Assembly: GCA_045126975.1 (NCBI GenBank)
Contig: JBGVPL010000001.1
Span: 8,642 to 72,641, forward strand
Length of the DNA stretch: 64,000 bases
From: Candidatus Aphodosoma sp.
GTDB taxonomy: Bacteria; Bacteroidota; Bacteroidia; Bacteroidales; Paludibacteraceae
Direction: 5' to 3'
The notes beneath the pieces were generated by a model that ran no database searches, was not told the DNA's origin, and was given only the letters and a program-made list of their open reading frames with translations. The translations under genes and the position numbers were made by a program. Numbering within the stretch: the stretch's first letter is position 1; every line of letters begins with the position of its first letter. Shown here in pieces: positions 8,427 to 62,254 of the stretch.

Positions 8427-8427
8427 A

Positions 8428-8587: not shown

Positions 8588-8657
8588 TTCAACTTTCAAC
8601 TTTCAACTTTCAACTTTCAACTTTCAACTTTCAACTCTTAACTCTAAACTCTATAAT
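8588..8657 (+). repeat. Tandem heptamer array, TTCAACT x7 then CTTAACT/CTAAACT/CTATAAT
   Basis: Strict 7-nt period. The array ends 1 nt before the flotillin ATG (8659). Confidence 0.95.
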
Positions 8658-11822: not shown

Positions 11823-11835
11823 TTCAAAGCATAGT

Positions 11836-11884
11836 GCATAATGCATAATTCACAATTCATAATTTTCAATTCTCAATTCTCAAT
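11836..11884. repeat. Tandem heptamer array GCATAAT/TCACAAT/TCATAAT/TTTCAAT/TCTCAAT
   Basis: Seven phase-locked 7-nt units in the nusA-infB spacer. Confidence 0.85.
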
Positions 11885-11894
11885 TTAAAAATAT

Positions 11895-14840: not shown

Positions 14841-14943
14841 TTAGACAAAAGATAATAGACACGAGATATAAGGCATATTTGTCTTGTGTCTCGTGTCTTT
14901 TGTATAATTTTCAACTCTCAACTCTTAACTCTTAACTCTTAAC
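14841..14943 (+). repeat. Intergenic spacer made entirely of 7-nt units: TAGACA-type array, its inverted complement (terminator-like hairpin), then a TCAACTC/TTAACTC array
   Basis: Fifteen consecutive heptamers run in one register from the base after the infB stop to the cvpA ATG. agacacgag (14857-14865) pairs with ctcgtgtct (14890-14898). Confidence 0.85.
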
Positions 14944-15607: not shown

Positions 15608-15650
15608 TATAATAGGGAACAAGGAATAGGGAACAAGGAATAGGGAGATT
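15608..15650. repeat. Tandem heptamer array GGGAACA/AGGAATA in the SDR leader
   Basis: Units tataata gggaaca aggaata gggaaca aggaata gggagat. Confidence 0.85.
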
Positions 15651-17776: not shown

Positions 17777-19027
17777 ATGTTTGATATTTTTGAGGAGATA
17801 TTTGCGGCATTGAAGATGAATCGTATGCGTACGTTTCTGACAGGGTTTGCTATTGCATGGGGTATATTCATGTTGGTGGCTTTGTTGGCTGTAGGCAATG
17901 GGTTCAGTAATGCAATGTTTTCGAATTTCAGATATATGTCGCAAAATTCGGTGTCGCTATATGCTGGTCGTACGTCGATGCCATACGGAGGACGACAAAA
18001 GGGGCGCACAATCAGATTTTCGATGGCCGATTGTGAGTGGATGCGTACGCATTTGGAGGGTTGTAAGTCGTTGTCGCCGATATTCAATTTGTGGAATGGT
18101 TCGATAGCATACGGCACATTGCAATTCGATGCAAATATAACAGGCGTGAATGAGGTGTATCGTGATTTGCGAGTGTTGGAGGTGAAGCATGGACGATTTG
18201 TGAATGCGATGGATATGCACGAAAGACGTAAGGCTGTGGTGATTGACGAAAATACGGCGCGTAAGTTGTTTGGTGTGGCAGAATTGGCCGTTGGTAAGAT
18301 GGTACGATTGACAAATGGAGTGAATTTTCAAGTGGTTGGTGTGACTGAGGCTGAGTATGAGGATTTGCGTCCATCGATATTTATTCCGCTTGCGATAGCA
18401 AATGTGATATATAATCCGTCGGGATGGGTCTATGATGTATCGTATGTGTTGGAGGGGGTAGAGACAGCCGAAGAGGCAAAGGCGTATAGCGAAAGATTGC
18501 GTGGACAATTGGCGCAATATTATGGCTATGACCCTGCCGACCAAAACGCGATATGGATTTCGAATCGAGTGGAGAGTTATGAACAATCTAAAATGATATT
18601 TAATGGTATTTCGCTGTTTATTTGGGTGATAGGTATCGGCACGCTGATTGCTGGTATTGTGGGGGTTAGTAATATTATGCTGATTACGGTGAAGGAGCGC
18701 ACGCGCGAGTTTGGTATTCGTAAGGCATTGGGTGCTACGCCTAATAGCATATTGGGATTGGTGGTGCTTGAATCGTTAGTTATCACGTTGATATTTGGTT
18801 ATATAGGCATGATGATGGGGGTGGGGTTGTCGGAATTGTTGTGTATGTTTTTCCCTGAAGGAGGAGGCTCGAGTATGCAGCCAACATTCTTGTCGAATCC
18901 GACAGTAGATTTAGGTATTGTATTTTCGGCAACGATGGTGCTCGTAGTGGCTGGAGTATTAGCGGGCTATATGCCAGCGAGAAATGCAGTGAAAATTAAG
19001 CCTATTGAGGCAATGAACGCAAAATAA
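17777..19027 (+). CDS. ABC transporter permease (MacB-like periplasmic domain + FtsX)
   Basis: N-terminal TM helix, large periplasmic domain, and a C-terminal FtsX-type 3-TM bundle (ERTREFGIRKALGAT). Confidence 0.9.
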   Translation: MFDIFEEIFAALKMNRMRTFLTGFAIAWGIFMLVALLAVGNGFSNAMFSNFRYMSQNSVSLYAGRTSMPYGGRQKGRTIRFSMADCEWMRTHLEGCKSLSPIFNLWNGSIAYGTLQFDANITGVNEVYRDLRVLEVKHGRFVNAMDMHERRKAVVIDENTARKLFGVAELAVGKMVRLTNGVNFQVVGVTEAEYEDLRPSIFIPLAIANVIYNPSGWVYDVSYVLEGVETAEEAKAYSERLRGQLAQYYGYDPADQNAIWISNRVESYEQSKMIFNGISLFIWVIGIGTLIAGIVGVSNIMLITVKERTREFGIRKALGATPNSILGLVVLESLVITLIFGYIGMMMGVGLSELLCMFFPEGGGSSMQPTFLSNPTVDLGIVFSATMVLVVAGVLAGYMPARNAVKIKPIEAMNAK

Positions 19028-19137
19028 AATTCATAATTCACAATTCATAATGCATAATTAGCCATTCGGAGTTAATTTTGAACTATGAATTGTACATTAT
19101 GAATAAATTATGAATTATGCATTATGAATTATGAATT
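19028..19137. repeat. Composite palindromic element: AATTCAT/AATTCAC array, CCATTCGG core hairpin, then an inverted ATGAATT/ATGCATT array
   Basis: Left array 19028-19062, core gccattcggagttaatttt, right array about 19085-19137. The second permease ATG (19124) is the first base of an ATGAATT unit. Confidence 0.85.
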
Positions 19138-20371
19138 AATAAATGAGATTTGGCAGACGATTACGCGCAACAAGAGTCGTAGTTTGTTGACGGCTTTTGG
19201 GGTGTTTTGGGGTGTGTTTATGTTGGTGGTGATGGTGGCACTTGGCAGTGGTATCAGTCGAGGCATTATGGGACAGCTCGATGGTGTGGCACAGAATACA
19301 TCGATGATGTTTCCAAGTAATACGTCTATGCCGTATAAAGGATTCAAAAAAGGACGCACGTGGAATATGCATTCCGACGATTTAGTGGCAATGGAGCGCG
19401 AGTTCCCAGAATTGAAATATATCTCGCCTGTGATGTGGGTAAATAATGTAGGTAAAACAGCAAGAGGTACGAAGTCGGAGGAGTATAGTATGATGGGGTA
19501 CGATGCTAACTATTTCAAGATGTATCCGTTGAAAATGGTGCAAGGGCGTTGGATTAACGACATAGACCTTCGCGATACTCGAAAAGTGTGTGTCATAGGC
19601 GAAAAGGTGTTGAATGACCTCTATAAACCAGGCGAAAAAGCTGTGGGCACATTGTTGAGAGTAGGTAGTTCGTACTATACCGTGATTGGCGTAGTAAAAA
19701 AAGTTTCTGATGGTGTCAATTTCTTTGGAAATATGGATGAGATGTTGTTGGTGCCATATACAACAGCTCAAAGAATTCAAAATAGTGGTGATAAGATTGA
19801 TTGCCTATGTATTACGGCGTATGACAATGTGGAAATTGGGGATGTAGAAAAGCGCGTGGCGGCATTCGTTAAAGAGCGCAATTTAGTGAATCCCGATGAT
19901 GAAGCTGCATTGGAGTTGATAAATCTAAAAAAAATATTTGATTCGTTCTCGATGTTGTTTGGTGGGTTGAATTTTCTTGTGTGGATTGTAGGATTGGGTA
20001 CATTGTTGTCGGGTGTGATTGGGGTAAGTAATATTATGCTTGTTACGGTGCGTGAACGTACACAAGAGATAGGTATTCGTCGTGCATTAGGAGCTACACC
20101 GTTCACGATATTGAAACAGATAATGAGTGAGAGTGTGGTACTTACGGCAATAGCTGGGTTGGCTGGTTTGGTGTTTGCAGTGCTGGTATTGAGTGTGGTT
20201 GATATGGTTATGGCAATGCAACCTAATCCGGTTTTGCCATCAATTCAGTTGTCTTTCTCGTTGTCGATAGTAGCATTGGTGGTCATCATACTTGCTGGCA
20301 TGTTTGCTGGGTATTTGCCATCTAAACGAGCTCTTAGCATCAAAGCTGTCGAAGCTCTTCAAGATGAATAA
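19124..20371 (+). CDS. ABC transporter permease (MacB-like periplasmic domain + FtsX), paralog of 17777..19027
   Basis: Colinear with the preceding permease (ERTQEIGIRRALGAT). Confidence 0.9.
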   Translation: MNYELINEIWQTITRNKSRSLLTAFGVFWGVFMLVVMVALGSGISRGIMGQLDGVAQNTSMMFPSNTSMPYKGFKKGRTWNMHSDDLVAMEREFPELKYISPVMWVNNVGKTARGTKSEEYSMMGYDANYFKMYPLKMVQGRWINDIDLRDTRKVCVIGEKVLNDLYKPGEKAVGTLLRVGSSYYTVIGVVKKVSDGVNFFGNMDEMLLVPYTTAQRIQNSGDKIDCLCITAYDNVEIGDVEKRVAAFVKERNLVNPDDEAALELINLKKIFDSFSMLFGGLNFLVWIVGLGTLLSGVIGVSNIMLVTVRERTQEIGIRRALGATPFTILKQIMSESVVLTAIAGLAGLVFAVLVLSVVDMVMAMQPNPVLPSIQLSFSLSIVALVVIILAGMFAGYLPSKRALSIKAVEALQDE

Positions 20372-20480: not shown

Positions 20481-21575
20481 ATGAAAAAAGTAATTAGAAT
20501 TTTTGTGTTTGTCCTTTTGGGGCTTGTAGTGATTGGTACGTTTGTGTATCTATATAAAAAATCGCGTCCTGAGGTGAAGGAATATCAAATTGTTACACCG
20601 GTGGTGCAGACATTGTCGAAGAAAACCATTGCTACGGGTAAGATTGAGCCACGTAATGAGGTGGAAATTAAGCCACAAATTTCGGGTATTATTAGCGAGA
20701 TATATAAGGAGGCAGGCGAAATGGTGCGTGAGGGCGATGTGATTGCTCTTATCAAAGTTATTCCTGAAATGAGTAGTCTTAACTCTGCTGAAAGTCGTGT
20801 GAATATTGCCAAGATTGATTTTGAGCAGGCAAAAACAGACTATGACCGTGCCGATAAATTGTTTGAGAAGAAGGTACTTTCGGCTGAAGAGTTTGAGAAA
20901 GAACGTGTTGCATATAATAAAGCAAAAGAGGAGTATCAGAATGCAGTTGATAATCTTGAAATCATCCGTGATGGTATTGCCAAGAGTTCAGGTGGTTATA
21001 GCAATACTCAAATTCGTGCTACTATTACGGGTTTGATTCTTGATATTCCCGTAAAAGTGGGTAACTCGGTGATTCAGAGTAATAATTTCAACGATGGTAC
21101 AACTATTTGTACTATTGCCGATATGAACGATATGATTTTCAAAGGTTCTATCGATGAGAGTGAGGTGGGGCGTATTCGTGAGGGATTACCTATCGTGCTC
21201 ACAATCGGTGCGTTGCAAGATATGAAATTCGATGCAGTGCTCGAATATGTATCGCCAAAGGGTGTTGAGGAGAGCGGTGCTGTGATGTTTGAAATCAAGG
21301 CGGCAGCATCGATTCCTGATACAGTGATGGTGCGTGCAGGCTATAGTGCCAATGCCGAGATTATCTTGATGCAACGCAAGAATGTGCTTGCTATACCTGA
21401 GGGTGTAGTAGAGATGGTGGGTGATTCGGCATTTGTATATCAATTAGATACTACAGTTGTTAATGAGCAGAAATTCAATCGTGTGCCTGTAGTGTTGGGT
21501 GTGTCGGATGGACTTAATATTGAACTTGTTGAGGGTGTAGAGCCTGATGCGCAACTTAGAGGAAACCTTAAATAA
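20481..21575 (+). CDS. Efflux transporter periplasmic adaptor subunit (MacA/HlyD family)
   Basis: Signal-anchor, lipoyl, coiled-coil and beta-barrel layout (TGKIEPRNEVEIKPQISGII...; ...IRATITGLILDIPVKVGNSV). Confidence 0.9.
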   Translation: MKKVIRIFVFVLLGLVVIGTFVYLYKKSRPEVKEYQIVTPVVQTLSKKTIATGKIEPRNEVEIKPQISGIISEIYKEAGEMVREGDVIALIKVIPEMSSLNSAESRVNIAKIDFEQAKTDYDRADKLFEKKVLSAEEFEKERVAYNKAKEEYQNAVDNLEIIRDGIAKSSGGYSNTQIRATITGLILDIPVKVGNSVIQSNNFNDGTTICTIADMNDMIFKGSIDESEVGRIREGLPIVLTIGALQDMKFDAVLEYVSPKGVEESGAVMFEIKAAASIPDTVMVRAGYSANAEIILMQRKNVLAIPEGVVEMVGDSAFVYQLDTTVVNEQKFNRVPVVLGVSDGLNIELVEGVEPDAQLRGNLK

Positions 21576-21628
21576 GGAATAGGGAATATGGAGTAGGAAA
21601 TAAGGATTTTGTTATTGTGTATTTTAAT

Positions 21629-22945
21629 ATGAAAAAAATATTAATAATTTCATTGTGCATTGTGAATTATGTATTGTGCATTGCACAGGGTTGGACTTTG
21701 GACTCGTGTATATCGTATGCTCAACAGCAGAGTTATAGCGTGATACGTGCAAATATGGCAGTTAAGAATGCCGAAATTGCTGAGCGTAGTGCGCGTGTGG
21801 CAATGACGCCATCGGTGAATGCAGGTATTGGCGAGAATCTCTCTTTTGGTTTGGTTGAGGGGGCGAACAATGTACGCGAAAATCGCACTCAATCTACTAC
21901 AAGTTTCAATGCATCAGTTTCTATGCCATTGTTTACTGGTTTGCGTATAACTAATCAAATTAAACGTACGGGAGTTGAATTGCAAGTAGCTCTTGCTGAT
22001 GTAGAGAGTGCGAAGGAGAATATTGAACTTAATGTGATGACTTATTACCTTCAAATGATGTATTCGCGTGAGATGATTGCTGTGCAAGAGAGTCAGTTGG
22101 CTTTGTCTGAACAACTCTTAGAGCGTACACGAGTGTTGGTTGATGAGGGGTGTCAGTCGGAGAGTGAACTTTATGAAATAGAGGCGCAAGTGGCTCAAAA
22201 TCGTCAGCAACTCACTGATGCTAAAAATAGTTATCGTTTAGCAGTAGTGGATTTGTGTCAGTTGATAAATTATAAAGATGTAGAGGGATTTTATAATGCA
22301 CAATTCACAATTAACAATTCACAATTTGAGATGCAAAATATTGCGTCTCTACTCCCAACACCTGATGTTGTTTATTCTCATGCAGTGGCAAATCGACCAT
22401 CTATCGAAGCTCAACAACGTCGTATTGAGAGTGCTGAATTGGCAGTGAAAGAGACTAAGGCAGAGTATTATCCTCAACTCAACCTTAATGCCTCTTGGGG
22501 TACAGGCTATTATCATACGTTTAATGGTAATAATCCTGCATTTGGTAATCAGTTTGTTGATAATGGTAGTGAGGTGATAGGTTTGTCGTTGAATATTCCA
22601 ATTTATAATCGTATGCAAGTGCGTCATGCTGTGAAGCGTCAGCAGATAGCAGTAGAGGAGGCAAAACTTTCTGAGTTAGAGATGAAAGACCGCTTGTATA
22701 AAGACATACAGTCGGCATATTACAACGCCATTGCAGCACAAGAAAAACACACTGCAGCGCAAAAAAGTCGCGAGTCAGCTGCCAAAGCCCTTGAGTTTGC
22801 AACTAATAAATATGAACTTGGTCGCCTTAGTACATACGAATATAGTGAAGCGCAAACACGTCTTCAACAGGCTCAAGCTCAAGAGACACAAGCGAAATAT
22901 GAATACTTGCTCCGTGCACGTATTTTAGAGTTTTATATGGAATAA
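21629..22945 (+). CDS. TolC family outer membrane efflux protein
   Basis: Signal peptide MKKILIISLCIVNYVLCIAQG, two TolC repeats, and it is the last gene of the ABC-MFP operon. The ATG at 21629 is preferred over the GTG at 21617. Confidence 0.9.
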   Translation: MKKILIISLCIVNYVLCIAQGWTLDSCISYAQQQSYSVIRANMAVKNAEIAERSARVAMTPSVNAGIGENLSFGLVEGANNVRENRTQSTTSFNASVSMPLFTGLRITNQIKRTGVELQVALADVESAKENIELNVMTYYLQMMYSREMIAVQESQLALSEQLLERTRVLVDEGCQSESELYEIEAQVAQNRQQLTDAKNSYRLAVVDLCQLINYKDVEGFYNAQFTINNSQFEMQNIASLLPTPDVVYSHAVANRPSIEAQQRRIESAELAVKETKAEYYPQLNLNASWGTGYYHTFNGNNPAFGNQFVDNGSEVIGLSLNIPIYNRMQVRHAVKRQQIAVEEAKLSELEMKDRLYKDIQSAYYNAIAAQEKHTAAQKSRESAAKALEFATNKYELGRLSTYEYSEAQTRLQQAQAQETQAKYEYLLRARILEFYME

Positions 22946-29400: not shown

Positions 29401-32400
29401 ATGTTGTGAACGAAGATGATAAGACCGAAGCGAACATACTTCTTTCGGCCAACTCTATCAACTACATATTTGATATGTCTAATTCGGCATTGCTTCCAGA
29501 CCAAACTTATATGTTCCGTGCTATCACGATGTGCGACTTTGGTTCGGGTGAAATTCATAACGAATCTGAAACTATCAGTGTAATAAAAGATATGGCTAAA
29601 CCTATGTTGCTCGGCAACCCTTCGCCTGCAAATGGTATTTTGACTGCCGATGGCGAAGTGTCGGTTACTTTCAACGAAGACATCAAATCTTCAAGTCTTC
29701 GCGATGTGGATAACTTCATCGTTAAAGCGAAATTGAATGGCTACCGTGTTGACCATAACGTGGCTATGAGTCTTACCGAAGGTGCTGGTGCTGCTACTGA
29801 AGCCGACATTGATTTGAGTGGTCGCGACTTCGCTTTCAACTTCTGGTTGAATTACTCAAATGCAGGTACTGTCATCGAACATGGTCAAGCCTCTACTAAA
29901 TTTGCTGTAGCACTCAACGATGCTGGTAATCTTGTTGTAACTATTAATGGTAATGTTTATACCTCAACTGCTACTGTACCTGCCGATAAATGGGTATTTA
30001 TGTCAGTATCTTATAAATATGCTCAAGGCAATAGTCGCCTCACTGCTCACTACGCAATCGATGCTTCATCTGTAGAGTTGTTTATGAATAATGCTGTAGA
30101 TGACTACTTAGGTAACGGTCGTTTGGCTGTAGGCGAAGGTTTGAATGCTAAGATGCACGAACTCACAATGTGGAACAATGCTCGCGAATTTGCTGTAGCG
30201 CAAAGCGAAATGTATGAATCTAAACGCCCAAGCACTCTTAATTTGATTGGTTACTGGCGTATGGATGAAGGTCATGGCACTGTGGCTGAAGATTGTGTAC
30301 GCAATCGTCATCTTACTCTCCCTGCAACTAATGTATGGTATATCGCTGGCGAAAATGTCGCTCTTACTCTCAATGGTGAACAATATGCAGCAATGAATAT
30401 CGCAACTGTTGCTCCATACGAAACAGAAGACTTTATGTTCGAACTTTGGTTCCGTGGCGATAAACAATCTGGTGCTTCTACTTTGTTCACAAATAGCAAA
30501 GGTTTCAGCGTCGGATTTGATGCAGAAGGCAATTTGTTAATGCACAATGCACAATGCACAATGCATAATTATCTTGATAATCAATGGCACCATTTGGCAA
30601 TCAATTCGCTCCGCAATGGCGCAACTATTCTCTATGTCGATGGCGTAGCAGTTAAACAAATAGCATCTAAAGCATCTGCTACAATCGCAAGCGATCGTCT
30701 TGTAATTGGTGCTGACTGCTATCACCCAGAAAGTGATGCGAATAATTGGGAATATCGCAACTACTTCCGTGGCGAAATTGATGAAATCCGTTTGTGGAAT
30801 GCTTCTCTTACAGCCGATCATATTCGCGAAAATATGTATAATCGCGTAGATGCTGATGCCGAAGGTTTGGCAGCATACTACCCATTCGAGAAAACAACGG
30901 TTAATGAATACAATCAAGCTGAGGTAGTATTTGACCTTGCCGACCATAGCGCAAACAGTATGGGTGAACTTGAAGTTTCTGAACTCAATGCTCAACTCTC
31001 AACCGAAAACACTCCTGCTCTTAAGGTGGCTCCTGAATTGCAAAATGTAGCATTCTCGTTCGTAGCTTCTGAGCGCAAAGTGGTTATCAATCTCAACGAA
31101 GCCGCTGATATTATCGAGGGTACTACAATTCAATTCACAGTGCGTGATGTTTATGATGCAAACAACAACTTGTCGGTTCCTGTAATCTGGAATGCTTACG
31201 TTCAACGTAACCTCCTCAAATGGAGCGAAGAAGAAGTTGTAGTTGAAAAACAATCGCTCGAAACTCGTACATTCTCAGTCGATGTTATCAACAAAGGCGC
31301 TGCTTCTGAATCTTGGTATATCAACAATCTCCCAACTTGGCTTACTGCCGATGTAGAGGCTGGTAGTCTTAACCCATTGTCTGATATCTCTATCAACTTC
31401 ACCATTAGCGCAGCATTGCCTATCGGTCGTTACGAAGAGGTTATTTATCTCGTTGGCAACAACAATATCTACGAACCTTTGGTTGTAACCGTCAACGTTA
31501 TAGGCGAAACTCCTGATTGGTCAGTTAATCCCGACGATTTCGAACATTCTATGTCTATGATTGGTCAGTTGCAAGTGGCTGGTATCACATCCGAAGATGT
31601 CGAAGACCGTGTAGCTGCATTCATCGATGGCGAATGTGTAGGTATTGCATCTCCTATCTACAATGCTCGTTATGATGCTTACTTTGTAATGCTTAATATT
31701 TATAGCAATGGCAACAACCAACCTGTAGCATTTAAAGTCTTTGATGCAAGCACAGGCAATGTCTATCCTGCTGTAGAAACAAGTAGTGCAGTGACATTTG
31801 TAACAAATAGCGTGATTGGTAATATGAACAACCCATTCATTTGGAATGCAAAAGATCTTCTTGAGCAAACAATCAATATGAATCGTGGTTGGAATTGGAG
31901 TTCACTCTATGTTGAGCCTGAAAGCAATTTAGTAACTGATATATTATCTCCTATTGCTTCTGCTGTTGAAATCGCTAAAGATAAATCATCATACGCAATG
32001 TATGGCAATCGTCAATGGCGTGGTGGCTTGACTGAAATCAACGTTGGTAAGATGTATAAAGTGAAAATGCGTAGAGCTACAATTCTTAGTGTAGTTGGAG
32101 AAAAAGTTAATCCTTCAGACGAATTGATAAAAGTGAATTCGGGTTGGAATTGGATTGGTTACACTACATCTTTCAATCTTTCTGTTGCTGATGCATTTGC
32201 CGACCTTAATCCACAAGATGGTGATGTAGTGAAGAGCAAAAACGACTTTGCTATCTACAACTCTTACGAATGGGTAGGTACACTCACTGCTCTTGCTCCT
32301 GGTAGTGGTTATATGTATTATTCAACTGCTAAAGAAGTAAAAGAATTTACATATCCATCTCAATCATCAGCTCAACCTTCGCAAATGCGAGTAGTTCAAC

Positions 32401-35484: not shown

Positions 35485-36504
35485 ATGAGAGTGGCAATTG
35501 TGGGCGCAAGTGGCGCCGTTGGACAAGAGTTTTTGCGTGTGTTAGCAGAACGTAATTTCCCTATTACGGAGTTGAAATTGTTTGGCTCATCACGCAGTGC
35601 AGGTCGTGAATATGAATTCCGAGGTAAGAAAATCATGGTGCAAGAGTTGCGTCATGGCGATGATTTCAAGGATTTAGATATAGTATTTACATCGGCAGGT
35701 GGGTCGATTTCGCAAGAATATGCCGAAGATATCACACGTTTTGGTGCTGTGATGATTGATAATTCGAGCGCATTCCGTATGGATGAAGATGTGCCATTGG
35801 TAGTGCCAGAAGTGAATGCCGAAGATGCACTTAATCGTCCTCGTAATATTATTGCTAATCCAAACTGTACTACAATCCAAATGGTTGTAGCATTGAAAGC
35901 AATTGAGAATTTGTCGCATATTCGTCGTGTGCATGTGTCAACATATCAAGCAGCTTCGGGTGCAGGTGCTACTGCGATGGCTGAGCTCGAACAACAATAT
36001 CGTGAAGTGTTGGCAGGCGAGCCTGTTACGGTCGATAAATTTGCTTATCAATTAGCTTATAACCTTATACCTCAAGTGGATGTATTTACCGAAAATGGTT
36101 ATACCAAAGAGGAGATGAAGATGTATAACGAAACACGAAAGATTATGCACTCTGACATTCAAGTGAGTGCTATGTGCGTGCGAGTGCCATCGTTGCGAGC
36201 TCACTCTGAGTCTATTTGGGTAGAGACAGAACGTCATATCTCGGTGGCAGAAGCTCGTGAGGCATTTGAGAAAGCTGAAGGTGTTGTGGTTATGGATAAT
36301 CCAGCTGCGAAAGAATATCCAATGCCATTGTTCCTTTCGGGTAAAGATCCAGTGTATGTAGGTCGTATACGTGAGGATTTGAGTAATCCTAATGGGTTGA
36401 CATTTTGGAGTGTGAGCGATCAAATCAAGAAAGGTGCAGCACTTAATGCTGTGCAAATTGCGGAATACTTAATCAAGGAGCAAGGAATAAGGAGCAAGGA
36501 ATAA
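35485..36504 (+). CDS. asd: Aspartate-semialdehyde dehydrogenase
   Basis: [16 protein letters not shown] Rossmann N-terminus and the active-site region [10 protein letters not shown]. The last ~9 codons and the stop lie inside a CAAGGAA/TAAGGAA array. Confidence 0.95.
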
Positions 36505-36599
36505 GGAATAAGGTCGAGATTTTGCATTGCAAAAGCGAGACCATTAGATCAAGAGTAAATTATGTTTTTATGTCATTCTGTCTAAAAAAATATGAAAAT

Positions 36600-37649: not shown

Positions 37650-38683
37650 GAATATTCCCTGCAGAGTGGGCTCCACAACAATTTGTGCAACTCACATGGC
37701 CTCACGCTGATACCGATTGGGCATATATGCTCGAGGAGGTGCATGCGTGTTTCAAGAATATAGCACGTGAAGTAGCTAAGCGTCAGCAGTTGCTTATTGT
37801 TGCGCCTGATGTGGAGGAGGTGCGTCGTCAGATTGCCGATGAGGTGAATATGGCGAATGTGCGTTTGGTGGAGTTGCCATCTAACGACACTTGGGCTCGC
37901 GACCATGGAGGAATTACTATCTTTGAGACACGAGACACGAGACACGAGAGACGAGACTCAATATATCCGGTTATTCTCGATTTTCAGTTTAATGGCTGGG
38001 GATTGAAGTTCGCTTCAGATAAAGATAATTTGATTACTGAGCGTTTGTATCGTGGCGGTCATCTTTTTGGCGAATTGCGCAATTGTCGTAATTTTGTATT
38101 CGAAGGTGGCTCTATCGAGAGCGATGGCGAAGGTACATTGTTGACAACATCAGAATGTCTTTTGTCGCCAAACCGCAATGCCACTATGTTGCGTGCCGAT
38201 ATCGAGAAATATCTTTTGGATACATTAGGCGCACGTCAACTCCTTTGGCTTGATCATGGTTATCTTGCTGGCGACGACACCGATTCGCATATCGACACTT
38301 TGGCTCGTTTATGTCCTAACAATACAATATTATACGTAAAATGCGATGATGTGAACGATGAGCATTACGAGGCATTGCACCATATGGAAACTCAGCTCAA
38401 AACCTTCCGTACGCTCGCAGGCGAACCTTATCGCTTAATTGCTTTGCCTATGGCGCATCCTGCCTTCGAAGATGACGAGCGAATACCTGCAACATACGCC
38501 AACTATTTAGTTATTAATGGCGCAGTGCTTGTGCCTACGTATGGTACGGATTTAGATGCTACGGCATTAGCGCAAGTAGGCAAGGCATTTCCTGACAGAG
38601 AGATTGTTGGAGTGGATTGCCAAGCTTTGATTCGTCAGCATGGGTCATTGCACTGTGTGACAATGCAATATCCTTGTGTTTGA
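37646..38683 (+). CDS. aguA: Agmatine deiminase
   Basis: FPAEWAPQ, WARDHGG, FNGWG, DSHIDTLARL and a C-terminal GSLHCVTMQ catalytic Cys. ATGA overlap with the upstream gene. Confidence 0.92.
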   Translation: MRIFPAEWAPQQFVQLTWPHADTDWAYMLEEVHACFKNIAREVAKRQQLLIVAPDVEEVRRQIADEVNMANVRLVELPSNDTWARDHGGITIFETRDTRHERRDSIYPVILDFQFNGWGLKFASDKDNLITERLYRGGHLFGELRNCRNFVFEGGSIESDGEGTLLTTSECLLSPNRNATMLRADIEKYLLDTLGARQLLWLDHGYLAGDDTDSHIDTLARLCPNNTILYVKCDDVNDEHYEALHHMETQLKTFRTLAGEPYRLIALPMAHPAFEDDERIPATYANYLVINGAVLVPTYGTDLDATALAQVGKAFPDREIVGVDCQALIRQHGSLHCVTMQYPCV

Positions 38684-39340: not shown

Positions 39341-40216
39341 ATGAAAATAGGTATAATACAACAATCAATAACTCCCGATGTGGAGGCAAACAAGAAGATG
39401 CTACGTGACGAGATAGTGAAAGCAAGTCGTGAGGGAGCTGAACTTGTAGTACTTCAAGAGTTGCATAATACACCTTATTTCTGTCAAACAGAGAATACTG
39501 AGTTGTTTAATCTTGCAGAGCCAATACCTGGTCCGTCAACTGAATTCTATTCGCAAGTGGCGGCTGAGTGTGGTGTTGTGTTAGTTACTTCGTTGTTTGA
39601 GCGTCGTGCTGCAGGTTTGTATCACAATACTGCTGTGGTGTTTGAAAAAGATGGCTCTATTGCAGGAAAATATCGCAAAATGCACATTCCTGATGACCCA
39701 GCTTATTACGAGAAATTCTATTTCACTCCAGGCGACTTAGGTTTCGAGCCAATTCAAACTTCGGTTGGTCGTCTTGGTGTATTAGTTTGTTGGGATCAAT
39801 GGTATCCTGAAGCAGCTCGATTGATGGCATTGGCAGGAGCGGAACTCTTGATTTACCCTACTGCTATTGGTTGGGAAAGTACTGATACTGATGAAGAAAA
39901 AGCTCGTCAACGAGAGGCTTGGATTACTGTTCAACGCGGTCATGCTGTGGCAAATGGATTGCCTGTAGTTAGTGTGAATCGTGTAGGGCATGAGCCTGAC
40001 CCAAGTGGTGCAACTAATGGCATTTTGTTTTGGGGTAGTAGTTTTGTGGCTGGTCCTCAAGGCGAGTTCCTCTATCAAGCACCATCAGATAAAACCGACC
40101 GTAAGGTGATAGATGTTGATATGAAGCGTAGTGAAAATGTGCGCCGTTGGTGGCCATTCCTTCGCGATCGCCGCATCGAAAACTATGGCGATATCACAAA
40201 ACGATTTTTAAAATAA
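39341..40216 (+). CDS. aguB: N-carbamoylputrescine amidase (CN-hydrolase family)
   Basis: The nitrilase-superfamily E-K-C triad context (VLQELHNTPYFC; YRKMHIPD; VLVCWDQWYPEAAR), and pairing with aguA. Confidence 0.9.
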   Translation: MKIGIIQQSITPDVEANKKMLRDEIVKASREGAELVVLQELHNTPYFCQTENTELFNLAEPIPGPSTEFYSQVAAECGVVLVTSLFERRAAGLYHNTAVVFEKDGSIAGKYRKMHIPDDPAYYEKFYFTPGDLGFEPIQTSVGRLGVLVCWDQWYPEAARLMALAGAELLIYPTAIGWESTDTDEEKARQREAWITVQRGHAVANGLPVVSVNRVGHEPDPSGATNGILFWGSSFVAGPQGEFLYQAPSDKTDRKVIDVDMKRSENVRRWWPFLRDRRIENYGDITKRFLK

Positions 40217-40371
40217 GGAATAGGGAACAAGGAATAAGGAATAAGGAGCAGGGAACAAGGTCGTCCGATATTCCTCCCCTGTTTTAGGGGAGGTGCCCGT
40301 AGGGCGGAGGGGTTTTCAACTTTCAACTAAAAAAACGGTGGGTCTCGCTACTCGTTACTTGCTACTAAATA
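40214..40371 (+). repeat. Composite repeat block: TAAGGAA-type array (starts on the aguB stop), GGGGAGG hairpin element copy 3 (40268-40316), TTCAACT x2, then a CTCGCTA/CTTGCTA array
   Basis: Same module order as the block at 8428-8657. Element copy 3 is atattcctcccctgttttaggggaggtgcccgtagggcggaggggtt. Confidence 0.9.
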
Positions 40372-40379
40372 TCTGATAT

Positions 40380-41633
40380 ATGCAAAGAAAAGATTTTGAA
40401 ATAATGGCACCTGCGGGTTCGTGGGAGAGCCTTCAAGCAGCAATACAAGCTGGTGCCGATTCGGTATATTTTGGTATTGAACGTCTTAATATGCGTTCTC
40501 GCTCATCAAGCAATTTCACTACAGAGGATTTGCATCGCATTGTAGAGCGTTGTAAAGAGGCTGGCATTAAATCTTACCTCACAATTAATACAATTATCTA
40601 TGACGAAGACCTTGAACTCATGCGTGAAATCGTAGATAACGCAAAAGAGGCGGGTGTGAGTGCTATTATTGCAGCCGATGTAGCTGTGATGCAATATGCT
40701 ATTTCGCAAGGTGTTGAGGTTCACCTCAGTACTCAACTCAATATATCTAACGTTGAGGCATTGCGTTTCTATGCTCAATTTGCAGATGTAGTAGTATTGG
40801 CTCGTGAGCTTAATATGAATCAAGTAGCTGAAATCCACCGTCGTATCGTAGAGGAAAATATCGTGGGTCGCAATGGCGAATTGATTCGTATCGAGATGTT
40901 CTGTCATGGTGCTTTGTGTATGGCTGTGTCGGGTAAATGCTATCTTTCTTTGCACGAACTTAATGCTTCAGCCAATCGTGGAGCTTGCATGCAAGTATGT
41001 CGTCGTGCATATCGTGTTCATGACGAAGATTCTGATATTGAACTCACTGTAGATAATAAATATATCATGTCGCCTAAAGACTTGAAGACTATTCATTTTA
41101 TGAATAAGATGATGGATTCGGGTGTGCGTGTATTCAAAATCGAAGGTCGCGCTCGTGGACCTGAGTATGTGAAGGCTGTGGTGTCGTGTTATAATGAGGC
41201 AATCGAAGCACATCTTACCAATACATTTACTGACGAGAAGGTGGCAGATTGGGATGTACGACTCTCAAAAGTGTTTAATCGTGGTTTCTGGGATGGTTAT
41301 TATCTCGGTCAACGCCTTGGTGAGTGGAGTCACAATTATGGCTCAAAAGCTACTCATAAGAAGGTATATATTGGTAAGTGTACTAACTTCTTCCAAAAAA
41401 TTGGTGTAGCAGAGTTCTTACTCGAAGCACAAACTCTCTCTGTAGGCGATGAAATTCTTGTAACAGGCGAAACTACAGGTGCATACGAAGATGTAGTAGA
41501 AGAGGTACGTGTAGATTTGAAACCAGTTGAAATAGTCGAAAAAGGTACATATTTCAGTATCAAAACAAAAGACGTTGTTCGTCGCAACGACAAATTATTC
41601 AAAATCGTACCATCTGACGAATTGCAAAAATAA
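40380..41633 (+). CDS. Peptidase U32 family protein
   Basis: Typical U32 N-terminus (EIMAPAGSWESLQAAIQAGADSVYFG) and the conserved E..CHGALCMAVSGKCYLS region. Confidence 0.9.
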   Translation: MQRKDFEIMAPAGSWESLQAAIQAGADSVYFGIERLNMRSRSSSNFTTEDLHRIVERCKEAGIKSYLTINTIIYDEDLELMREIVDNAKEAGVSAIIAADVAVMQYAISQGVEVHLSTQLNISNVEALRFYAQFADVVVLARELNMNQVAEIHRRIVEENIVGRNGELIRIEMFCHGALCMAVSGKCYLSLHELNASANRGACMQVCRRAYRVHDEDSDIELTVDNKYIMSPKDLKTIHFMNKMMDSGVRVFKIEGRARGPEYVKAVVSCYNEAIEAHLTNTFTDEKVADWDVRLSKVFNRGFWDGYYLGQRLGEWSHNYGSKATHKKVYIGKCTNFFQKIGVAEFLLEAQTLSVGDEILVTGETTGAYEDVVEEVRVDLKPVEIVEKGTYFSIKTKDVVRRNDKLFKIVPSDELQK

Positions 41634-41653
41634 TTATTTATAATCTATAATTT

Positions 41654-42799
41654 ATGAAAAAAACACTACTGTTTTTATTGTGCATTGTGTGCAGTGTATT
41701 GTGCATTAATGTGAATGCTGAAACTCTTGAAGAAAAAGTGGCTCGTCTTGAAGCTAAACTTGCTACGCTCGAAGCAAAAACTGAAGCAACAGATTCGGTG
41801 ATTACAGCCGAAGTGGTTGAACCTAAAAAGAAAATGCAACCTATTTCGGTGAAATTCGATGCTCGTTTCGACTGGCAGTCTTCTTTTACTCATAATGCTG
41901 ATGCTAAACCAAGTTATGCATCTAATTTCAATGGACGCTATATCATGTTTATGCTTGATGGTAATATCAGTCCAAAATTCTCTTACTCTTTGCGTTATCG
42001 TATGATTCACCCAAGTCATGAGAATTCTTGGCGTGGTGTTTTCAATGCAACCGACTGGGCACAACTTACTTATCGTCCTACAAAGAATTGGGAAATCACA
42101 GCAGGTAAAATGCTTGTGTTCTATGGTTCTTATGAATTTGACAAAAACCCTCTTGATGTTTATATGTGGTCAGGTTGGGGTGGTCGTGTAGGCTGTTTCC
42201 AATTTGGTGTATTGGGTAAATATATTACTAATGATGGACGTAATAATATCCTTTTCCAAATCAATAATTCACCATTTGCCGACCCTCTCAGTTTAGGTGC
42301 AATGTATAGCTATTCTGTTCAATGGAATGGTAATTTTGGAGTATTCAATGCACTCTATTCTGATAATTTAATTGAATATCAGCCAGGTCGTTTCATAAAT
42401 TACATTTCACTTGGTAATCAATTCAATTTTGGTCCTGCAACTATTGAACTCGACTATATGAATCGTTATGGTGCTCGTGGCACAAATTTCTTTGGCGATT
42501 TTTCATTTATCGGGCGAGTTAAATATAATGTATGCGATCAGTTAACTATTTTTGCTAAAGGTGGTCTTGACTATAATATGAATGAAGAGGTTGTTGATTT
42601 GCTTATATTGCCTGGTGAACGTAATGTTTATTATGGTGCAGGTCTTGAATTTTATCCAATTAAAAATAGCAAAAATGTGCGTATCCATGCATTCTGGCAA
42701 TCGGGTAATAACAATCTTGGTATCGACGGGCAAGCATGGAATGTGCACAATGTTGGTATAGGTTTCAAATGGAGATTGGTTGCCTTCGAACGTCAATAA
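41654..42799 (+). CDS. Putative outer-membrane porin (OprO/P-like beta-barrel with an N-terminal coiled coil)
   Basis: Signal peptide, LEEKVARLEAKLATLEAKTEA coiled coil, alternating aromatic beta-strand pattern, and a C-terminal ...GIGFKWRLVAFERQ. Confidence 0.5.
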   Translation: MKKTLLFLLCIVCSVLCINVNAETLEEKVARLEAKLATLEAKTEATDSVITAEVVEPKKKMQPISVKFDARFDWQSSFTHNADAKPSYASNFNGRYIMFMLDGNISPKFSYSLRYRMIHPSHENSWRGVFNATDWAQLTYRPTKNWEITAGKMLVFYGSYEFDKNPLDVYMWSGWGGRVGCFQFGVLGKYITNDGRNNILFQINNSPFADPLSLGAMYSYSVQWNGNFGVFNALYSDNLIEYQPGRFINYISLGNQFNFGPATIELDYMNRYGARGTNFFGDFSFIGRVKYNVCDQLTIFAKGGLDYNMNEEVVDLLILPGERNVYYGAGLEFYPIKNSKNVRIHAFWQSGNNNLGIDGQAWNVHNVGIGFKWRLVAFERQ

Positions 42800-42923
42800 G
42801 ATAATGTAGAAAATAGTAGGGACGCTCGGTTCGAGCTTCCGTTAATGAATAATATTTAATAAACGAAGGGAAGTTGAGTATTGTATTCTTGCTACTCGCT
42901 ACTCGCTACTAAAAATCTAAACA

Positions 42924-55428: not shown

Positions 55429-55885
55429 ATTTTTAGACTTATAGTAGCGAGTTTTTTTGAATGCATAATGCATAATGCACAATTATATTGGCTTCGCTTG
55501 TTAATATTTTATTTTGAATATGCCATAATGTCTTGAGTTCTGTGGTTTGTTTTTGATGTTTATTGTGACAATATGGCACTATTTGTCTATTTTCGAGACT
55601 TTAGAGGTTCGTTTTAGCCTCCACTATATATTATACAATCGGTGTGCCAAAAGTAGAGAATGAGGAGTTAGGAATGAGGAGTTAGAAATTAGTATTTTGG
55701 AATTAGGAGTAAGGGAGATTTTTTGAAGAGAGATGTGTTGTTTTTTCTTTTTTTTTTTACTATCTTTGTGGTGATTTTTGGGTTGTGATGTCTTGAGAAC
55801 TGTGTTTTAGTATTTAATTTGTTGGTTTTTAGTTGGTTGTATATTGTTTTTATGAGGTTCTATAAAGAGTTGTGTCGTTGGAAAT

Positions 55886-59367: not shown

Positions 59368-59573
59368 ATTTTAGCATTTTAGTAACGAGTAGCGAGTAGC
59401 GAGACTTTTGATACTCGGCTTCGCCTCGTTATTTTTTATAGATTTTAGTAGCGAGAAGTGAGACATACTCGCTTTGTTCGTTTTATTTTTTTTGAACGTA
59501 AATTCTCGCTAATTATCCATAAATTAAGAATAAGTTTTTGATTAATTTATGGTAATTTGTGTTTGAAAGAAAG

Positions 59574-60506
<933 letters not shown>

Positions 60507-61430: not shown

Positions 61431-62147
61431 ATGTTACTTTTACAAGAAACACAAATGGTAGCAACAATGGCTGCCGACACATTGAATGCTATGGCTCCAG
61501 TGGTTGAAGAGCCAGCAAAACTTAACTTTTTTGAGATGTGCCTCAAAGGCGGTTGGATTATGATTCCGCTTGCGTTGATGCTCATTTTTGCTATTTATAT
61601 TTTTATTGAACGTTTGATTGTTACGCGTCAGGCTTCGAAAGAGGACGCTACGTTTATGAATCGTATTAAAGATTATATTTATGATGGTAAACTTGATGCA
61701 GCATTGAAACTTTGTCGTGATACAAAATCGCCTTCGGCACGTATGATTGAAAAAGGTATCTCTCGTCTTGGTCGTCCGATGTCGGATGTGTTGGTGGCAA
61801 TCGAAAATGTTGGTAATATTGAAATTGCAAAACTTGAAAAAGGACTTTCGTTGTTGGCTACTATCTCGGGTGGAGCTCCGATGTTAGGTTTCTTGGGTAC
61901 TGTGATGGGTATGGTGCAAGCTTTCTTCGAAATGGAACAAGCTGGTGGTAACACAATCAACCTTAGTCAGTTGTCTGGTGGTATTTATACAGCAATGGTT
62001 ACTACAGTAGCAGGTCTTATTGTGGGTGTATGTGCTTATTTTGCATATAATTATCTTGTAGGTCGCGTGAACGAAGTGATGCGTCGTCTTGAAATGCGTA
62101 GCATGGAATTCCTCGATTTGCTAAATGAACCAGCAGCAGTTAAATAA
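61431..62147 (+). CDS. exbB: MotA/TolQ/ExbB proton-channel family protein
   Basis: Three TM segments and a conserved C-terminal core (LATISGGAPMLGFLGTVMGMVQAF). Confidence 0.9.
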   Translation: MLLLQETQMVATMAADTLNAMAPVVEEPAKLNFFEMCLKGGWIMIPLALMLIFAIYIFIERLIVTRQASKEDATFMNRIKDYIYDGKLDAALKLCRDTKSPSARMIEKGISRLGRPMSDVLVAIENVGNIEIAKLEKGLSLLATISGGAPMLGFLGTVMGMVQAFFEMEQAGGNTINLSQLSGGIYTAMVTTVAGLIVGVCAYFAYNYLVGRVNEVMRRLEMRSMEFLDLLNEPAAVK

Positions 62148-62245
62148 TTCATAATTCACAATTCATAATTCATAATTAACCATTCGGTGTTAATTTTATG
62201 ATTATGAACTAAAAATTATGAATTATGCATTATGCATTATGAATT
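62146..62245. repeat. Composite palindromic element, second copy: AATTCAT/AATTCAC array, ACCATTCGG core hairpin, inverted ATGAATT/ATGCATT array
   Basis: Left array 62146-62180 overlaps the exbB stop. Core attaaccattcggtgttaatttt. Right array 62197-62245. Same architecture as 19028-19137. Confidence 0.9.
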
Positions 62246-62254
62246 GAAAAAGTT

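What the first reader, a model, noticed from the sequence alone, without database searches (positions are those of the whole stretch)
41676..41717. Signal-peptide hydrophobic cores of two outer-membrane proteins are encoded by CATTGTG heptamer arrays
In the porin-like gene, tattgtg cattgtg tgcagtg tattgtg cattaat is translated as LLCIVCSVLCINV. In the TolC gene (21651-21685), cattgtg cattgtg aattatg tattgtg cattgca is translated as SLCIVNYVLCIA. In this orientation the family cycles through C-I-V-H-C-A-L codons, which is hydrophobic. The opposite orientation (AATGCAC) gives polar N-A-Q-C-T-M-H and is the one found in soluble loops (22295, 30539). This suggests the repeats are recruited as ready-made h-regions at 5' ends of exported-protein genes.
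Basis: partly seen in the sequence, partly recalled or inferred. Interest (0 to 1): 0.65.

Follow-up and report, generated by a model that had tools for sequence, protein, structure and literature searches.

The report
Seven-base repeats encode signal-peptide cores
In this gut or rumen Bacteroidales genome and its relatives, tandem arrays of the 7-base unit CATTGTG repeatedly form the hydrophobic core of export signals on unrelated secreted proteins, while the same repeat in the opposite direction forms polar linkers inside proteins; I found no earlier description of this.

Summary

**The two genes.**
- Porin (41654-42799) reads LLCIVCSVLCINV across 41676-41710.
- TolC (21629-22945) reads SLCIVNYVLCIA across 21651-21685.
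- Both stretches are decayed CATTGTG-type heptamer arrays.
- Orthologues carry better versions at the same place. Three porin lineages have a perfect (TTGTGCA)x4 reading LCIVHCALCI, and one TolC orthologue has five units with a single mismatch.
- Other orthologues have ordinary, non-periodic signal peptides of about the same length.

**Across genomes.**
- A scan of species-representative genomes found 67 perfect arrays of at least 3 units in 60 Bacteroidota loci.
- Thirteen lie in the sense direction within the first 25 codons of exported-protein genes, and none lie there antisense.
- Random placement predicts 3% (P = 9e-8).
- Elsewhere inside genes the split is 1 sense to 18 antisense (Fisher P = 4e-8).
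- Arrays upstream of start codons show no direction bias (8 sense, 11 antisense).

**Explanation.** A fast-turning-over heptamer repeat family enters coding DNA and is filtered by what it encodes. HCALCIV is hydrophobic and NAQCTMH is polar.

**Open points.**
- Phase variation of the Neisseria Opa kind was not seen in assemblies and could not be tested in reads.
- The perfect porin array is identical in three diverged lineages, which is unexplained.

The parts
41654..42799 (+). Porin O/P-like outer-membrane protein gene. The signal peptide is codons 1-22 (41654-41719), MKKTLLFLLCIVCSVLCINVNA|ETLEEK.
   Evidence: Pfam Porin_O_P. The identical protein occurs in several independent assemblies. 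A metatranscriptome contig covers 41450-42050.
41676..41710 (+). Decayed CATTGTG-type heptamer array that encodes the h-region LLCIVCSVLCIN. Units 2-3 have diverged from the perfect form.
   Evidence: Orthologues L125, L129 and L136 have a perfect (TTGTGCA)x4 at the same columns.
21629..22945 (+). TolC-family outer-membrane efflux protein gene, last gene of a MacB/HlyD/TolC cluster. The signal peptide is codons 1-19 (21629-21685), MKKILIISLCIVNYVLCIA|QGW.
   Evidence: Pfam OEP, E = 1.9e-60.
21651..21685 (+). Heptamer array CATTGTG CATTGTG AATTATG TATTGTG CATTGCA that encodes the h-region SLCIVNYVLCIA.
   Evidence: TRF: period 7, 4.7 copies. Orthologue L133 has TATTGTG CATCGTG CATTGTG CATTGTG CATTGCA, and L134 is non-periodic with the same length.
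22295..22327 (+). Array of the same family in the opposite direction (AATGCAC/AATTCAC), in frame inside TolC at residues 223-233 (NAQFTINNSQF), in the segment before the best-scoring OEP stretch.
   Evidence: In orthologues this segment is hypervariable. Variants include NAQCTMHNAQ, NSQFSILNSQFSTLNSQFS (the AATTCTC array) and SDLSDQSDLSD, with 7-residue length steps.
30537..30570 (+). Near-perfect AATGCAC array (4.4 copies), in frame in a 3161-residue secreted Laminin_G-type protein at residue 2364. It reads MHNAQCTMHN and lies just before a Laminin_G_2 match.
55458..55484 (-). CATTATG/CATTGTG array, sense relative to the 816-residue minus-strand gene. It lies at or about 30 nt upstream of the likely start MFLSEE.
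19026..19142 (+). Spacer between the two MacB permease genes. An AATTCAT-type array (19026-19058) is followed by its complement, an AATTATG-type array (19074-19142). The second array contains the start codon at 19124 (ATGAATTATGAATTA = MNYEL).
62143..62246 (+). A second inverted pair of arrays from the same family (62143-62180 and 62196-62246), ending 9 nt before the start codon at 62255.
11828..11887 (+). Intergenic composite array (AATGCAT / AATTCAC / AATTCTC units), 8 nt upstream of the 981-residue ORF at 11895 (read as infB).

Best explanation
The window comes from a Paludibacteraceae (Bacteroidales) genome that is packed with short tandem arrays of 7-base units. The arrays belong to several related families, lie mostly between genes, and change in copy number and unit sequence between strains.

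Seven is not a multiple of three, so an array is read as one 7-residue repeat whatever the frame. CATTGTG gives HCALCIV: no stop codon, mean Kyte-Doolittle hydropathy +2.3. Its complement gives NAQCTMH: no stop codon, hydropathy -0.7.

Arrays that arise or expand inside genes survive only where the encoded peptide is tolerated. The hydrophobic direction survives as the h-region of Sec signal peptides, between a conserved MKK n-region and the cleavage site. The polar direction survives in loops and inter-domain linkers.

In the porin and TolC genes of the window, such arrays are the h-regions and have since decayed by substitution. The substitutions mainly remove the unfavourable His.

Shown here:
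- the arrays and their translations;
- perfect or near-perfect arrays at the same place in orthologues;
- recurrence in unrelated exported proteins;
- the rule linking direction to position.

Inferred, not shown:
- that these peptides actually direct export and are cleaved;
- that the filter is selection at the protein level;
- how the arrays arise (slippage or expansion in steps that keep the frame, most simply three units, or 21 nt).
For: - Array family and excess over chance.
- Translations.
- Porin orthologue DNA: a perfect (TTGTGCA)x4 in L125 (99% identical protein), L136 (90%) and L129 (84%). Other alleles differ only in units 2-3. P0053 keeps the n-region ATGAAAAAAACACTA but has a non-periodic h-region.
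- TolC orthologues: LCIVHCALCIA with five units in L133. The variant unit AATTATG, also found in intergenic arrays of the window, appears in L132 and the window. Non-array orthologues read MKKIIIILLVVVATLSASAQ at equal length.
- Across genomes: 13 of 67 Bacteroidota arrays lie sense in the first 25 codons, against 3% expected, P = 9e-8. Nine of the 10 proteins scanned matched families that are usually exported.
- The SP arrays start 5-16 codons after the ATG, in different phases, and are 21-33 nt long. This points to independent events.
- Three further decayed signal-peptide arrays were not part of the ascertainment.
- Direction by position: 13:0 at the N-terminus and 1:18 in the rest of the gene, Fisher P = 4e-8. 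Upstream of starts the split is 8:11, with no bias.
- Of the heptamer families in the window, only C/TATTGTG is open in all frames, strongly hydrophobic and free of Pro and charged residues.
- Polar arrays lie in probable linkers: before the best OEP stretch in TolC, between the NAD-kinase domains, before Laminin_G and LTD domains, and 172 residues into the 981-residue ORF read as infB.
- TolC loop length changes in 7-residue steps.
- Intergenic arrays differ by one 7-nt unit between strains.
Against: - No signal-peptide predictor or experiment was available. Export and cleavage are inferred from the MKK n-region, the A-x-A or A|Q type cleavage sites, and the exported families of the mature domains.
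It is a sample whose order is unknown.
- Genes were called from ORFs only.
- Some of the 13 cases are orthologous pairs (L053/L100; L055 and a second array in L087), so independent events number about 11.
- In the neighbour-joining tree of mature porins, the non-array signal peptides are nested within array-bearing lineages. The direction of change (array replacing an ordinary h-region, or the reverse) is therefore not established.
- The perfect array shows no synonymous change across three lineages. A purely protein-level filter does not predict this.
Confidence: 0.8

Rival explanations
1. Phase-variation switch, as in Neisseria opa. The arrays sit in leader peptides because gain or loss of one 7-nt unit shifts the reading frame and switches an outer-membrane protein on or off. 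Coding for a hydrophobic core is only the condition that allows the switch to sit there.
For: - The unit length is not a multiple of 3 and the array lies inside the ORF, in surface or outer-membrane proteins.
- Some orthologues carry 4-5 perfect units.
- Intergenic arrays do change by single units between strains.
- There is a precedent: CTCTT repeats in the opa leader peptide (PMC3960869).
Against: - Every full-length orthologue N-terminus listed keeps the same signal-peptide register, apart from a few with insertions or different 5' ends.
- The three truncated-looking protein classes checked at the DNA level (MNYALC..., MCCALC...) are gene callers choosing an internal GTG or ATG. They are not frameshifts.
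- The window's own arrays have at most 2 perfect units, which is poor material for slippage.
- Exported enzymes such as GH3 and a histidine phosphatase carry such arrays too.
- Read-level variation could not be examined, because the runs are held only as contigs.
Confidence: 0.1
2. The array works as a nucleotide-level element at the 5' end of the gene, for example a binding site or an unstructured translation-initiation region. Its translation is incidental.
For: - The perfect 33-nt array is identical in three porin lineages that differ at 25-36% of third codon positions nearby.
- Other heptamer families abut start codons within 0-14 nt throughout the window, and the position is kept while the unit changes between strains.
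- TAACTGA heptamer arrays next to start codons have been proposed to be regulatory (PMC4679880).
Against: - CATTGTG arrays within 150 nt upstream of starts show no direction bias (8 sense, 11 antisense).
- Inside genes, direction follows the hydropathy of the encoded peptide (13:0 against 1:18).
- The decayed alleles keep hydrophobicity rather than sequence.
Confidence: 0.07
3. Chance or codon-usage convergence. Leu/Cys/Ile/Val-rich h-regions in an AT-rich genome use TTG, TGC, ATT and GTG, and so merely look like CATTGTG repeats.
For: - The non-array TolC orthologue L134 also has a T/G-rich h-region (TTGTTGGTTGTGGTGG).
- The porin array in the window is imperfect and TRF does not call it.
Against: - Arrays are perfect over 4-5 units, synonymous positions included, in orthologues and in 13 unrelated proteins.
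- Cys- and His-rich h-regions are unusual for signal peptides.
- The window holds 10 arrays against 0.03 expected.
- The same family, with the same variant units, lies between genes and, reversed, inside genes.
Confidence: 0.02
4. Exchange of a signal-peptide cassette. One array-containing signal peptide spread among genes by recombination, rather than arrays forming independently.
For: - Signal-peptide alleles do not follow the tree of the mature porin.
- Several Candidatus Aphodosoma signal peptides look alike (MKRL..CALCIVHCAFSQ).
Against: - Array phase, length (21-33 nt), distance from the ATG (5-16 codons), n-regions and cleavage regions all differ between genes.
- Array and non-array orthologues share the same n-region nucleotides.
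- Between lineages that carry the perfect allele, the flanking n- and c-regions differ.
Confidence: 0.03

Closest known systems
CTCTT pentamer coding repeats in the leader peptide of Neisseria opa genes (PMC3960869)
   Same: - A tandem simple-sequence repeat whose unit is not a multiple of 3 lies inside the 5' coding region of an outer-membrane protein gene.
- It is translated as part of the leader peptide.
   Different: - In opa the copy number varies at high frequency and switches the gene on and off. Here no frameshifted copy-number variant was found in assemblies, and the window's arrays are decayed.
- The unit is 7 nt and belongs to a genome-wide, mostly intergenic family.
- The same unit recurs in many unrelated exported proteins across Bacteroidales families.
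Heptamer direct-repeat arrays: TAACTGA repeats of Beggiatoaceae, Cyanobacteria and a few Bacteroidetes (PMC4679880). From my own knowledge, also the cyanobacterial STRR repeats.
   Same: - Abundant arrays with a 7-nt period, specific to certain lineages.
- Mostly intergenic and often within a few nucleotides of start codons.
- Patchy phylogenetic distribution.
- Occasionally translated as a 7-residue repeat in one direction.
   Different: - The unit sequences differ.
- In the passages read, that paper does not link the repeats to signal peptides. The term occurs 0 times in its text.
- Here the link between array direction and protein position is the main result.
Tandem repeats in Borg elements that create intrinsically disordered protein regions (PMC9879509)
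   Same: Fast-evolving nucleotide tandem repeats that arise within ORFs and add new peptide segments under selection for what they encode. This matches the polar arrays in linkers here.
   Different: - Those are in archaeal extrachromosomal elements.
- As I recall, their coding repeat units are divisible by 3.
- The product there is disordered polar segments, not hydrophobic export signals.
Bacteroidetes Sec/SPI signal peptides and the Q-rule (PMC5837995)
   Same: - MKK n-region, hydrophobic core, and small residues before the cleavage site.
- TolC and most of the 13 cross-genome cases place Gln directly after the predicted cleavage site (...CIA|Q, ...AFS|Q, ...SA|Q).
   Different: Ordinary h-regions are Leu/Ala/Val/Ile/Phe-rich and not periodic at the nucleotide level. 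These are Cys- and His-containing with a 7-residue period.

Membership tests
Sec-type (signal peptidase I) signal peptide | Positively charged n-region directly after the start Met | tested here: met
   Both genes start MKK. Array and non-array orthologues share this n-region.
Sec-type (signal peptidase I) signal peptide | Hydrophobic h-region of roughly 7-15 residues | tested here: met
   The porin has LLFLLCIVCSVLCI and TolC has ILIISLCIVNYVLCI. The repeat HCALCIV has mean hydropathy +2.3.
Sec-type (signal peptidase I) signal peptide | c-region with small residues at -3/-1, and a mature domain from an exported family | tested here: met
   The sites read VNA|E in the porin and CIA|Q in TolC (the latter fits the Q-rule, PMC5837995). 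The mature domains are Porin_O_P and OEP. No SignalP score was available.
Sec-type (signal peptidase I) signal peptide | Demonstrated export and cleavage | not testable with these tools
   This needs N-terminal proteomics or reporter fusions.
Heptanucleotide tandem-repeat (SSR) array | At least 3 head-to-tail copies with period 7 | tested here: met
   TolC: TRF gives 4.7 copies and 80% matches. Porin: only 3 of 5 units fit in the window, but orthologues have a perfect x4 at the same place.
Heptanucleotide tandem-repeat (SSR) array | The same unit family occurs elsewhere in the genome as arrays | tested here: met
   The window holds 10 arrays of the [CTA]ATT[GA]TG family, both intergenic and intragenic.
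Heptanucleotide tandem-repeat (SSR) array | Copy-number change between strains | tested here: met
   There is a one-unit (7 nt) difference in the ARGGAAY array at 40212-40260 between the window and L125/L127. The TolC loop changes in 7-residue (21 nt) steps. No copy-number change was seen within the signal-peptide arrays themselves.
Phase-variable contingency locus (opa-like) | Repeat unit not divisible by 3, lying inside the ORF | tested here: met
   7-nt units lie in codons 8-19 of both genes.
Phase-variable contingency locus (opa-like) | Copy-number variants that shift the frame, between strains or within populations | tested here: not met
   Assemblies show none. The truncated protein calls checked are start-codon choices, not frameshifts. 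Variation within populations could not be tested, because the runs are held only as contigs.
Phase-variable contingency locus (opa-like) | Long uninterrupted repeat tract | tested here: not met
   The window has at most 2 perfect consecutive units in either gene. Some orthologues have 4.
TAACTGA / STRR-type heptamer repeats | The specific unit sequence (TAACTGA, or the cyanobacterial STRR units) | tested here: not met
   The units here are CATTGTG, AATTCAY, ARGGAAY, AACTCTY, GAGACAC and GCTACTC.
TAACTGA / STRR-type heptamer repeats | Abundant, mostly intergenic arrays, often directly upstream of start codons | tested here: met
   The window holds about 35 period-7 arrays in 64 kb. Many lie 0-14 nt before start codons.

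The most novel reading that the evidence does not exclude
Perfect CATTGTG arrays inside signal peptides are kept uniform at the DNA level by slippage or gene conversion. The heptamer-array system of Bacteroidales would then act as a standing generator of new peptide modules: export signals in one direction and linkers in the other. In its perfect state an array might also be a frameshift switch for surface and outer-membrane proteins. Alleles would be either 'live' (perfect and homogenised) or 'locked' (interrupted, with the His removed).
Probability: 0.2. Interest if true: 0.8.

Novelty: new variant of a known kind. Interest (0 to 1): 0.65.

Why it matters
- **Origin of a functional protein segment.** The hydrophobic core of an export signal comes repeatedly from a non-coding-type simple repeat. 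Because 7 and 3 share no factor, every frame gives the same peptide, and direction alone decides whether it is hydrophobic or polar.
- **Natural experiment on signal peptides.** Cys- and His-containing periodic cores appear to work. The His is then removed repeatedly, which shows how little information an h-region needs.
- **A marker.** Arrays reading HCALCIV flag exported proteins in uncultured gut and rumen Bacteroidales.
- **Annotation error.** Gene callers start inside the arrays at GTG or ATG and so cut off the signal peptide. About 28 of the 120 TolC orthologues listed begin MNYAL....
- **Possible new switch.** If perfect arrays slip, this would be a phase-variation mechanism not yet recognised in major gut commensals.

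Tried and rejected
- **First null model discarded.** The first null for 'N-terminal' (any ATG within 20 codons upstream) gave 9%, because internal Met codons qualified. I replaced it with a stricter definition: a stop within 40 codons upstream, K or R near the Met, and at least 150 aa downstream.
- **Suspected frameshift alleles rejected.** Proteins beginning MNYALCIAQGW (TolC) and MCCALCINLNA (porin) looked like frameshifted 'off' alleles. The DNA is in frame, and the gene caller had chosen an internal GTG or ATG.
- **Minus-strand 816-residue gene.** The ORF at 53032-55482 seemed to be a third signal-peptide case. Its N-terminal sequence shows no signal peptide, and the array is at or upstream of the likely start.
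- **Read-level test not possible.** Runs that hold the window are kept only as contigs, so rare +/-7 nt variants cannot be seen.
- **Metagenome scan gave little.** The scan for porin relatives returned only 5 loci.
- **Literature.** Searches for the repeat, its peptides, and repeats in signal peptides found no description of this.
- **Secondary arrays alone are weak.** Outside the window there are 3 signal-peptide cases among about 36 arrays. This only supports the main test.
- **Searches not run.** I did not use the last large protein search on a synthetic HCALCIV query, because signal-peptide-length matches would fall below its E-value range. Structure prediction of TolC was not run. The loop assignment rests on Pfam domain boundaries and on length variation among orthologues.
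Full report
**What is at the coordinates**

The window has about 40% G+C, and most genes lie on the + strand. The porin protein is identical in MAG GCA_045119015.1 and in several gut and rumen assemblies. Close homologues are labelled Paludibacteraceae.

- The gene at 41654-42799 (+) matches Porin_O_P and begins MKKTLLFLLCIVCSVLCINVNA|ETLEEK.
- The gene at 21629-22945 (+) matches OEP (TolC family). It closes a MacB/MacB/HlyD/TolC cluster and begins MKKILIISLCIVNYVLCIA|QGW.

**Is it more than chance?**

The window holds about 35 tandem arrays of period 7, from several related unit families.

- For the family [CTA]ATT[GA]TG, a scan of 28 nt with at most 3 mismatches finds 10 arrays. First-order Markov simulations give a mean of 0.03.
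- Two of the 10 lie sense in the h-regions of the 7 signal peptides in the window. P is about 2.7e-4.
- TRF calls the TolC array (4.7 copies). The porin array is more decayed, and TRF does not call it.

**Orthologues**

Porin:
- Many orthologues, from 99% down to about 71% identity, read LLCIVHCALCIN, the exact translation of (CATTGTG)n.
- At the DNA level, L125 (99% identical protein), L136 (90%) and L129 (84%) carry a perfect TTGTGCA x4 in the same columns.
- The window and four other alleles differ only within units 2-3. The variants seen are CSVL, STAL, SSAL, CCAL, CCTL and CSAL.
- Every such variant replaces the His.
- A group of orthologues (P0053-P0060) keeps the same n-region nucleotides but has an ordinary non-periodic core, MKKTLFIFSFVAIAFTSVFAQ.

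TolC:
- Orthologues show the same range. L133 has TATTGTG CATCGTG CATTGTG CATTGTG CATTGCA (LCIVHCALCIA).
- L132 and the window have one AATTATG unit, a variant also found in intergenic arrays of the window.
- L134 has a non-periodic core of the same length.

The periodicity is therefore a nucleotide-level feature, clearer in relatives than in the window.

**Enrichment across genomes**

The hits come from many phyla.
- In the 60 Bacteroidota loci, 13 of 67 arrays lie sense, 5-16 codons after an M[KR]-type start of an ORF of at least 150 aa. None lie there antisense.
- Random insertion of an array into the same loci meets the same criteria 3.0% of the time. That is a 6.5-fold excess, binomial P = 9e-8.
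- In other phyla the count is 1 of 63, and that case looks like an upstream array rather than a signal peptide.
- Ten of the 13 proteins were scanned against Pfam. Nine matched OEP/TolC, OmpA, an outer-membrane beta-barrel, GH3, GHL10 with a T9SS sorting domain, PKD, Big_5, DUF4835 or a histidine phosphatase, and one had no match. By my reading these families are usually exported.
- Most of the 13 place Gln after the predicted cleavage site, as expected for this phylum (PMC5837995).
- The arrays differ in phase, in length (21-33 nt) and in flanking residues, so they are mostly separate events. Two pairs look orthologous.
- Three further decayed arrays in signal peptides turned up that were not part of the ascertainment.

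**The orientation rule**

Classifying all 67 Bacteroidota arrays against simple ORF calls gives the counts below.

| Position of the array | Sense | Antisense |
|---|---|---|
| First 25 codons of a gene | 13 | 0 |
| Interior of a gene | 1 | 16 |
| Last 25 codons of a gene | 0 | 2 |
| Within 150 nt upstream of a start | 8 | 11 |

Another 16 arrays are otherwise intergenic or unclassifiable.

- Direction depends on position within genes: Fisher P = 4e-8.
- Direction is unbiased just upstream of starts (P = 0.65). This argues that the filter acts on the encoded peptide, not on the DNA or RNA near the 5' end.
- HCALCIV has mean hydropathy +2.3 and NAQCTMH has -0.7. Neither direction contains a stop in any frame.
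- Among the window's heptamer families, only C/TATTGTG is open in all frames, strongly hydrophobic and free of Pro and charge.

In the window the antisense arrays sit where the rule predicts:
- TolC residues 223-233, before the best-scoring OEP stretch. This segment is hypervariable in orthologues, carries other heptamer families there, and changes length in 7-residue steps.
- Residue 2364 of a 3161-residue Laminin_G-type protein, just before a domain.

Polar arrays of other families lie in similar places:
- between the two NAD-kinase domains;
- before an LTD domain;
- 172 residues into the 981-residue ORF read as infB;
- within an agmatine-deiminase-like enzyme.

**Mechanism**

The best-supported account is as follows. 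A lineage-specific heptamer repeat family turns over quickly. For example, there is a one-unit difference between strains at 40212-40260, and different units occupy the same spacer position in other strains. The family also arises or expands within genes.

Because 7 and 3 share no factor, any frame yields the same 7-residue repeat. Only frame-preserving changes (three units, 21 nt) survive. Selection keeps the hydrophobic direction in signal-peptide cores and the polar direction in linkers. Later substitutions improve the core by removing His.

From my own knowledge, many random hydrophobic sequences can replace a signal sequence (Kaiser et al., Science 1987). This makes such capture plausible. 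Export and cleavage themselves are inferred, not shown. A metatranscriptome contig covers the 5' end of the porin gene.

**What does not fit**

- The perfect porin array is identical over 33 nt in three lineages. Their first 300 mature-coding nucleotides differ at 37-50 positions (25-36% of third codon positions), and their n- and c-regions also differ. P(0) per pair is 0.002-0.013.
- Alleles are either perfect or differ by 3-5 changes. No single-step intermediates were seen.
- Signal-peptide alleles do not follow the tree of the mature protein. Non-array signal peptides are nested among array-bearing lineages.

These points suggest homogenisation of perfect arrays or some nucleotide-level constraint. 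They also leave the direction of change open.

**Rivals**

- Opa-like phase variation is the obvious analogue (PMC3960869). No frameshifted allele was found, and the truncated-looking database proteins are start-codon miscalls. Read-level data were not available.
- A nucleotide-level 5' element is weakened by the lack of direction bias upstream of starts.
- Codon-usage coincidence is excluded by the perfect arrays.
- Spread of a single signal-peptide cassette is unlikely, given the different phases and flanks.

**Comparison with what is known, and novelty**

- Heptamer arrays are known from Beggiatoaceae, Cyanobacteria and a few Bacteroidetes (PMC4679880).
- Coding repeats in a leader peptide are known from Neisseria.
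- Repeats that build new protein segments are known from Borgs (PMC9879509).
- Searches of the held literature found no report that a heptamer array family supplies signal-peptide cores, or of the direction-by-position rule.

I rate it a new variant of a known kind, with interest 0.65.

Noticed in passing
window 8427-8457, 15611-15646, 21570-21606, 36474-36513, 40212-40260: ARGGAAY arrays, which carry stops in all three frames (KE*GIRN), sit on or within a few nucleotides after the stop codons of + strand genes. They seem to mark gene ends.
   Followed up: partly
window 6579-6607, 8585-8655, 14909-14945, 40344-40366, 42886-42912, 59380-59404 (-), 62196-62246: Pyrimidine-rich arrays (AACTCTY, TTTCAAC, GCTACTC, ATTACTA) end 0-14 nt before start codons. 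In other strains a different heptamer or 14-mer occupies the same place upstream of the U32 peptidase gene, so the position is kept while the unit changes.
   Followed up: partly
window 19026-19142 and 62143-62246: Intergenic spacers hold an AATTCAT-type array followed by its reverse complement. These could pair as a long hairpin. The start codon at 19124 lies inside one array.
   Followed up: no
window 22250-22360 (TolC residues about 208-245), and proteins P0115-P0234: The TolC segment before the second OEP stretch is hypervariable among orthologues. It holds different heptamer-derived peptides (NAQCTMHNAQ, NSQFSILNSQFS, SDLSDQSDLSD) and changes length in 7-residue steps.
   Followed up: partly
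window 12409-12442, 37923-37957, 34807-34839, 60029-60065: Polar heptamer arrays are translated inside the 981-residue ORF read as infB ([11 protein letters not shown]), a PAD_porph enzyme ([11 protein letters not shown]), an LTD/CHU_C protein (ILNSQFSTLNS), and between the two domains of NAD kinase (TLNSQLSTLNS).
   Followed up: partly
loci L007-L124 (genome scan): Perfect CATTGTG arrays also occur in unrelated phyla, with several loci per genome in some MAGs: Vicinamibacteria MFD02840.bin.2.172, Clostridium sp. CSMAG_105, Phycisphaeraceae, Ruminococcus and Chloroflexota. There they are mostly intergenic. The patchy distribution is unexplained.
   Followed up: no
L132 1470-1520, L135 368-420; proteins P0118, P0020, P0051 and others: Gene callers often start these genes at a GTG or ATG inside the array (MNYALCIAQGW..., MCCALCINLNA...). 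This cuts off the signal peptide. About 28 of the 120 TolC orthologues listed are affected.
   Followed up: yes
L125, L129, L136 (porin 5' ends): The perfect 33-nt array is identical in three lineages, although nearby third codon positions differ by 25-36%. Alleles are either perfect or changed at several positions.
   Followed up: partly
L126-L129 about 2459-2897, compared with window 41633-41654: Some strains and species carry a PDDEXK_3-family gene between the U32 peptidase and porin genes. The window, L125 and L131 lack it.
   Followed up: no
window 41672-41707, laid against run X5: A 19.5-kb contig from a bovine gut run matches only the array. Its flanks read ATGAATTATAAAAAAATCTTATTGT...CTGTCTATGCTCAAAC. 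This looks like another gene whose N-terminus carries the same array.
   Followed up: no
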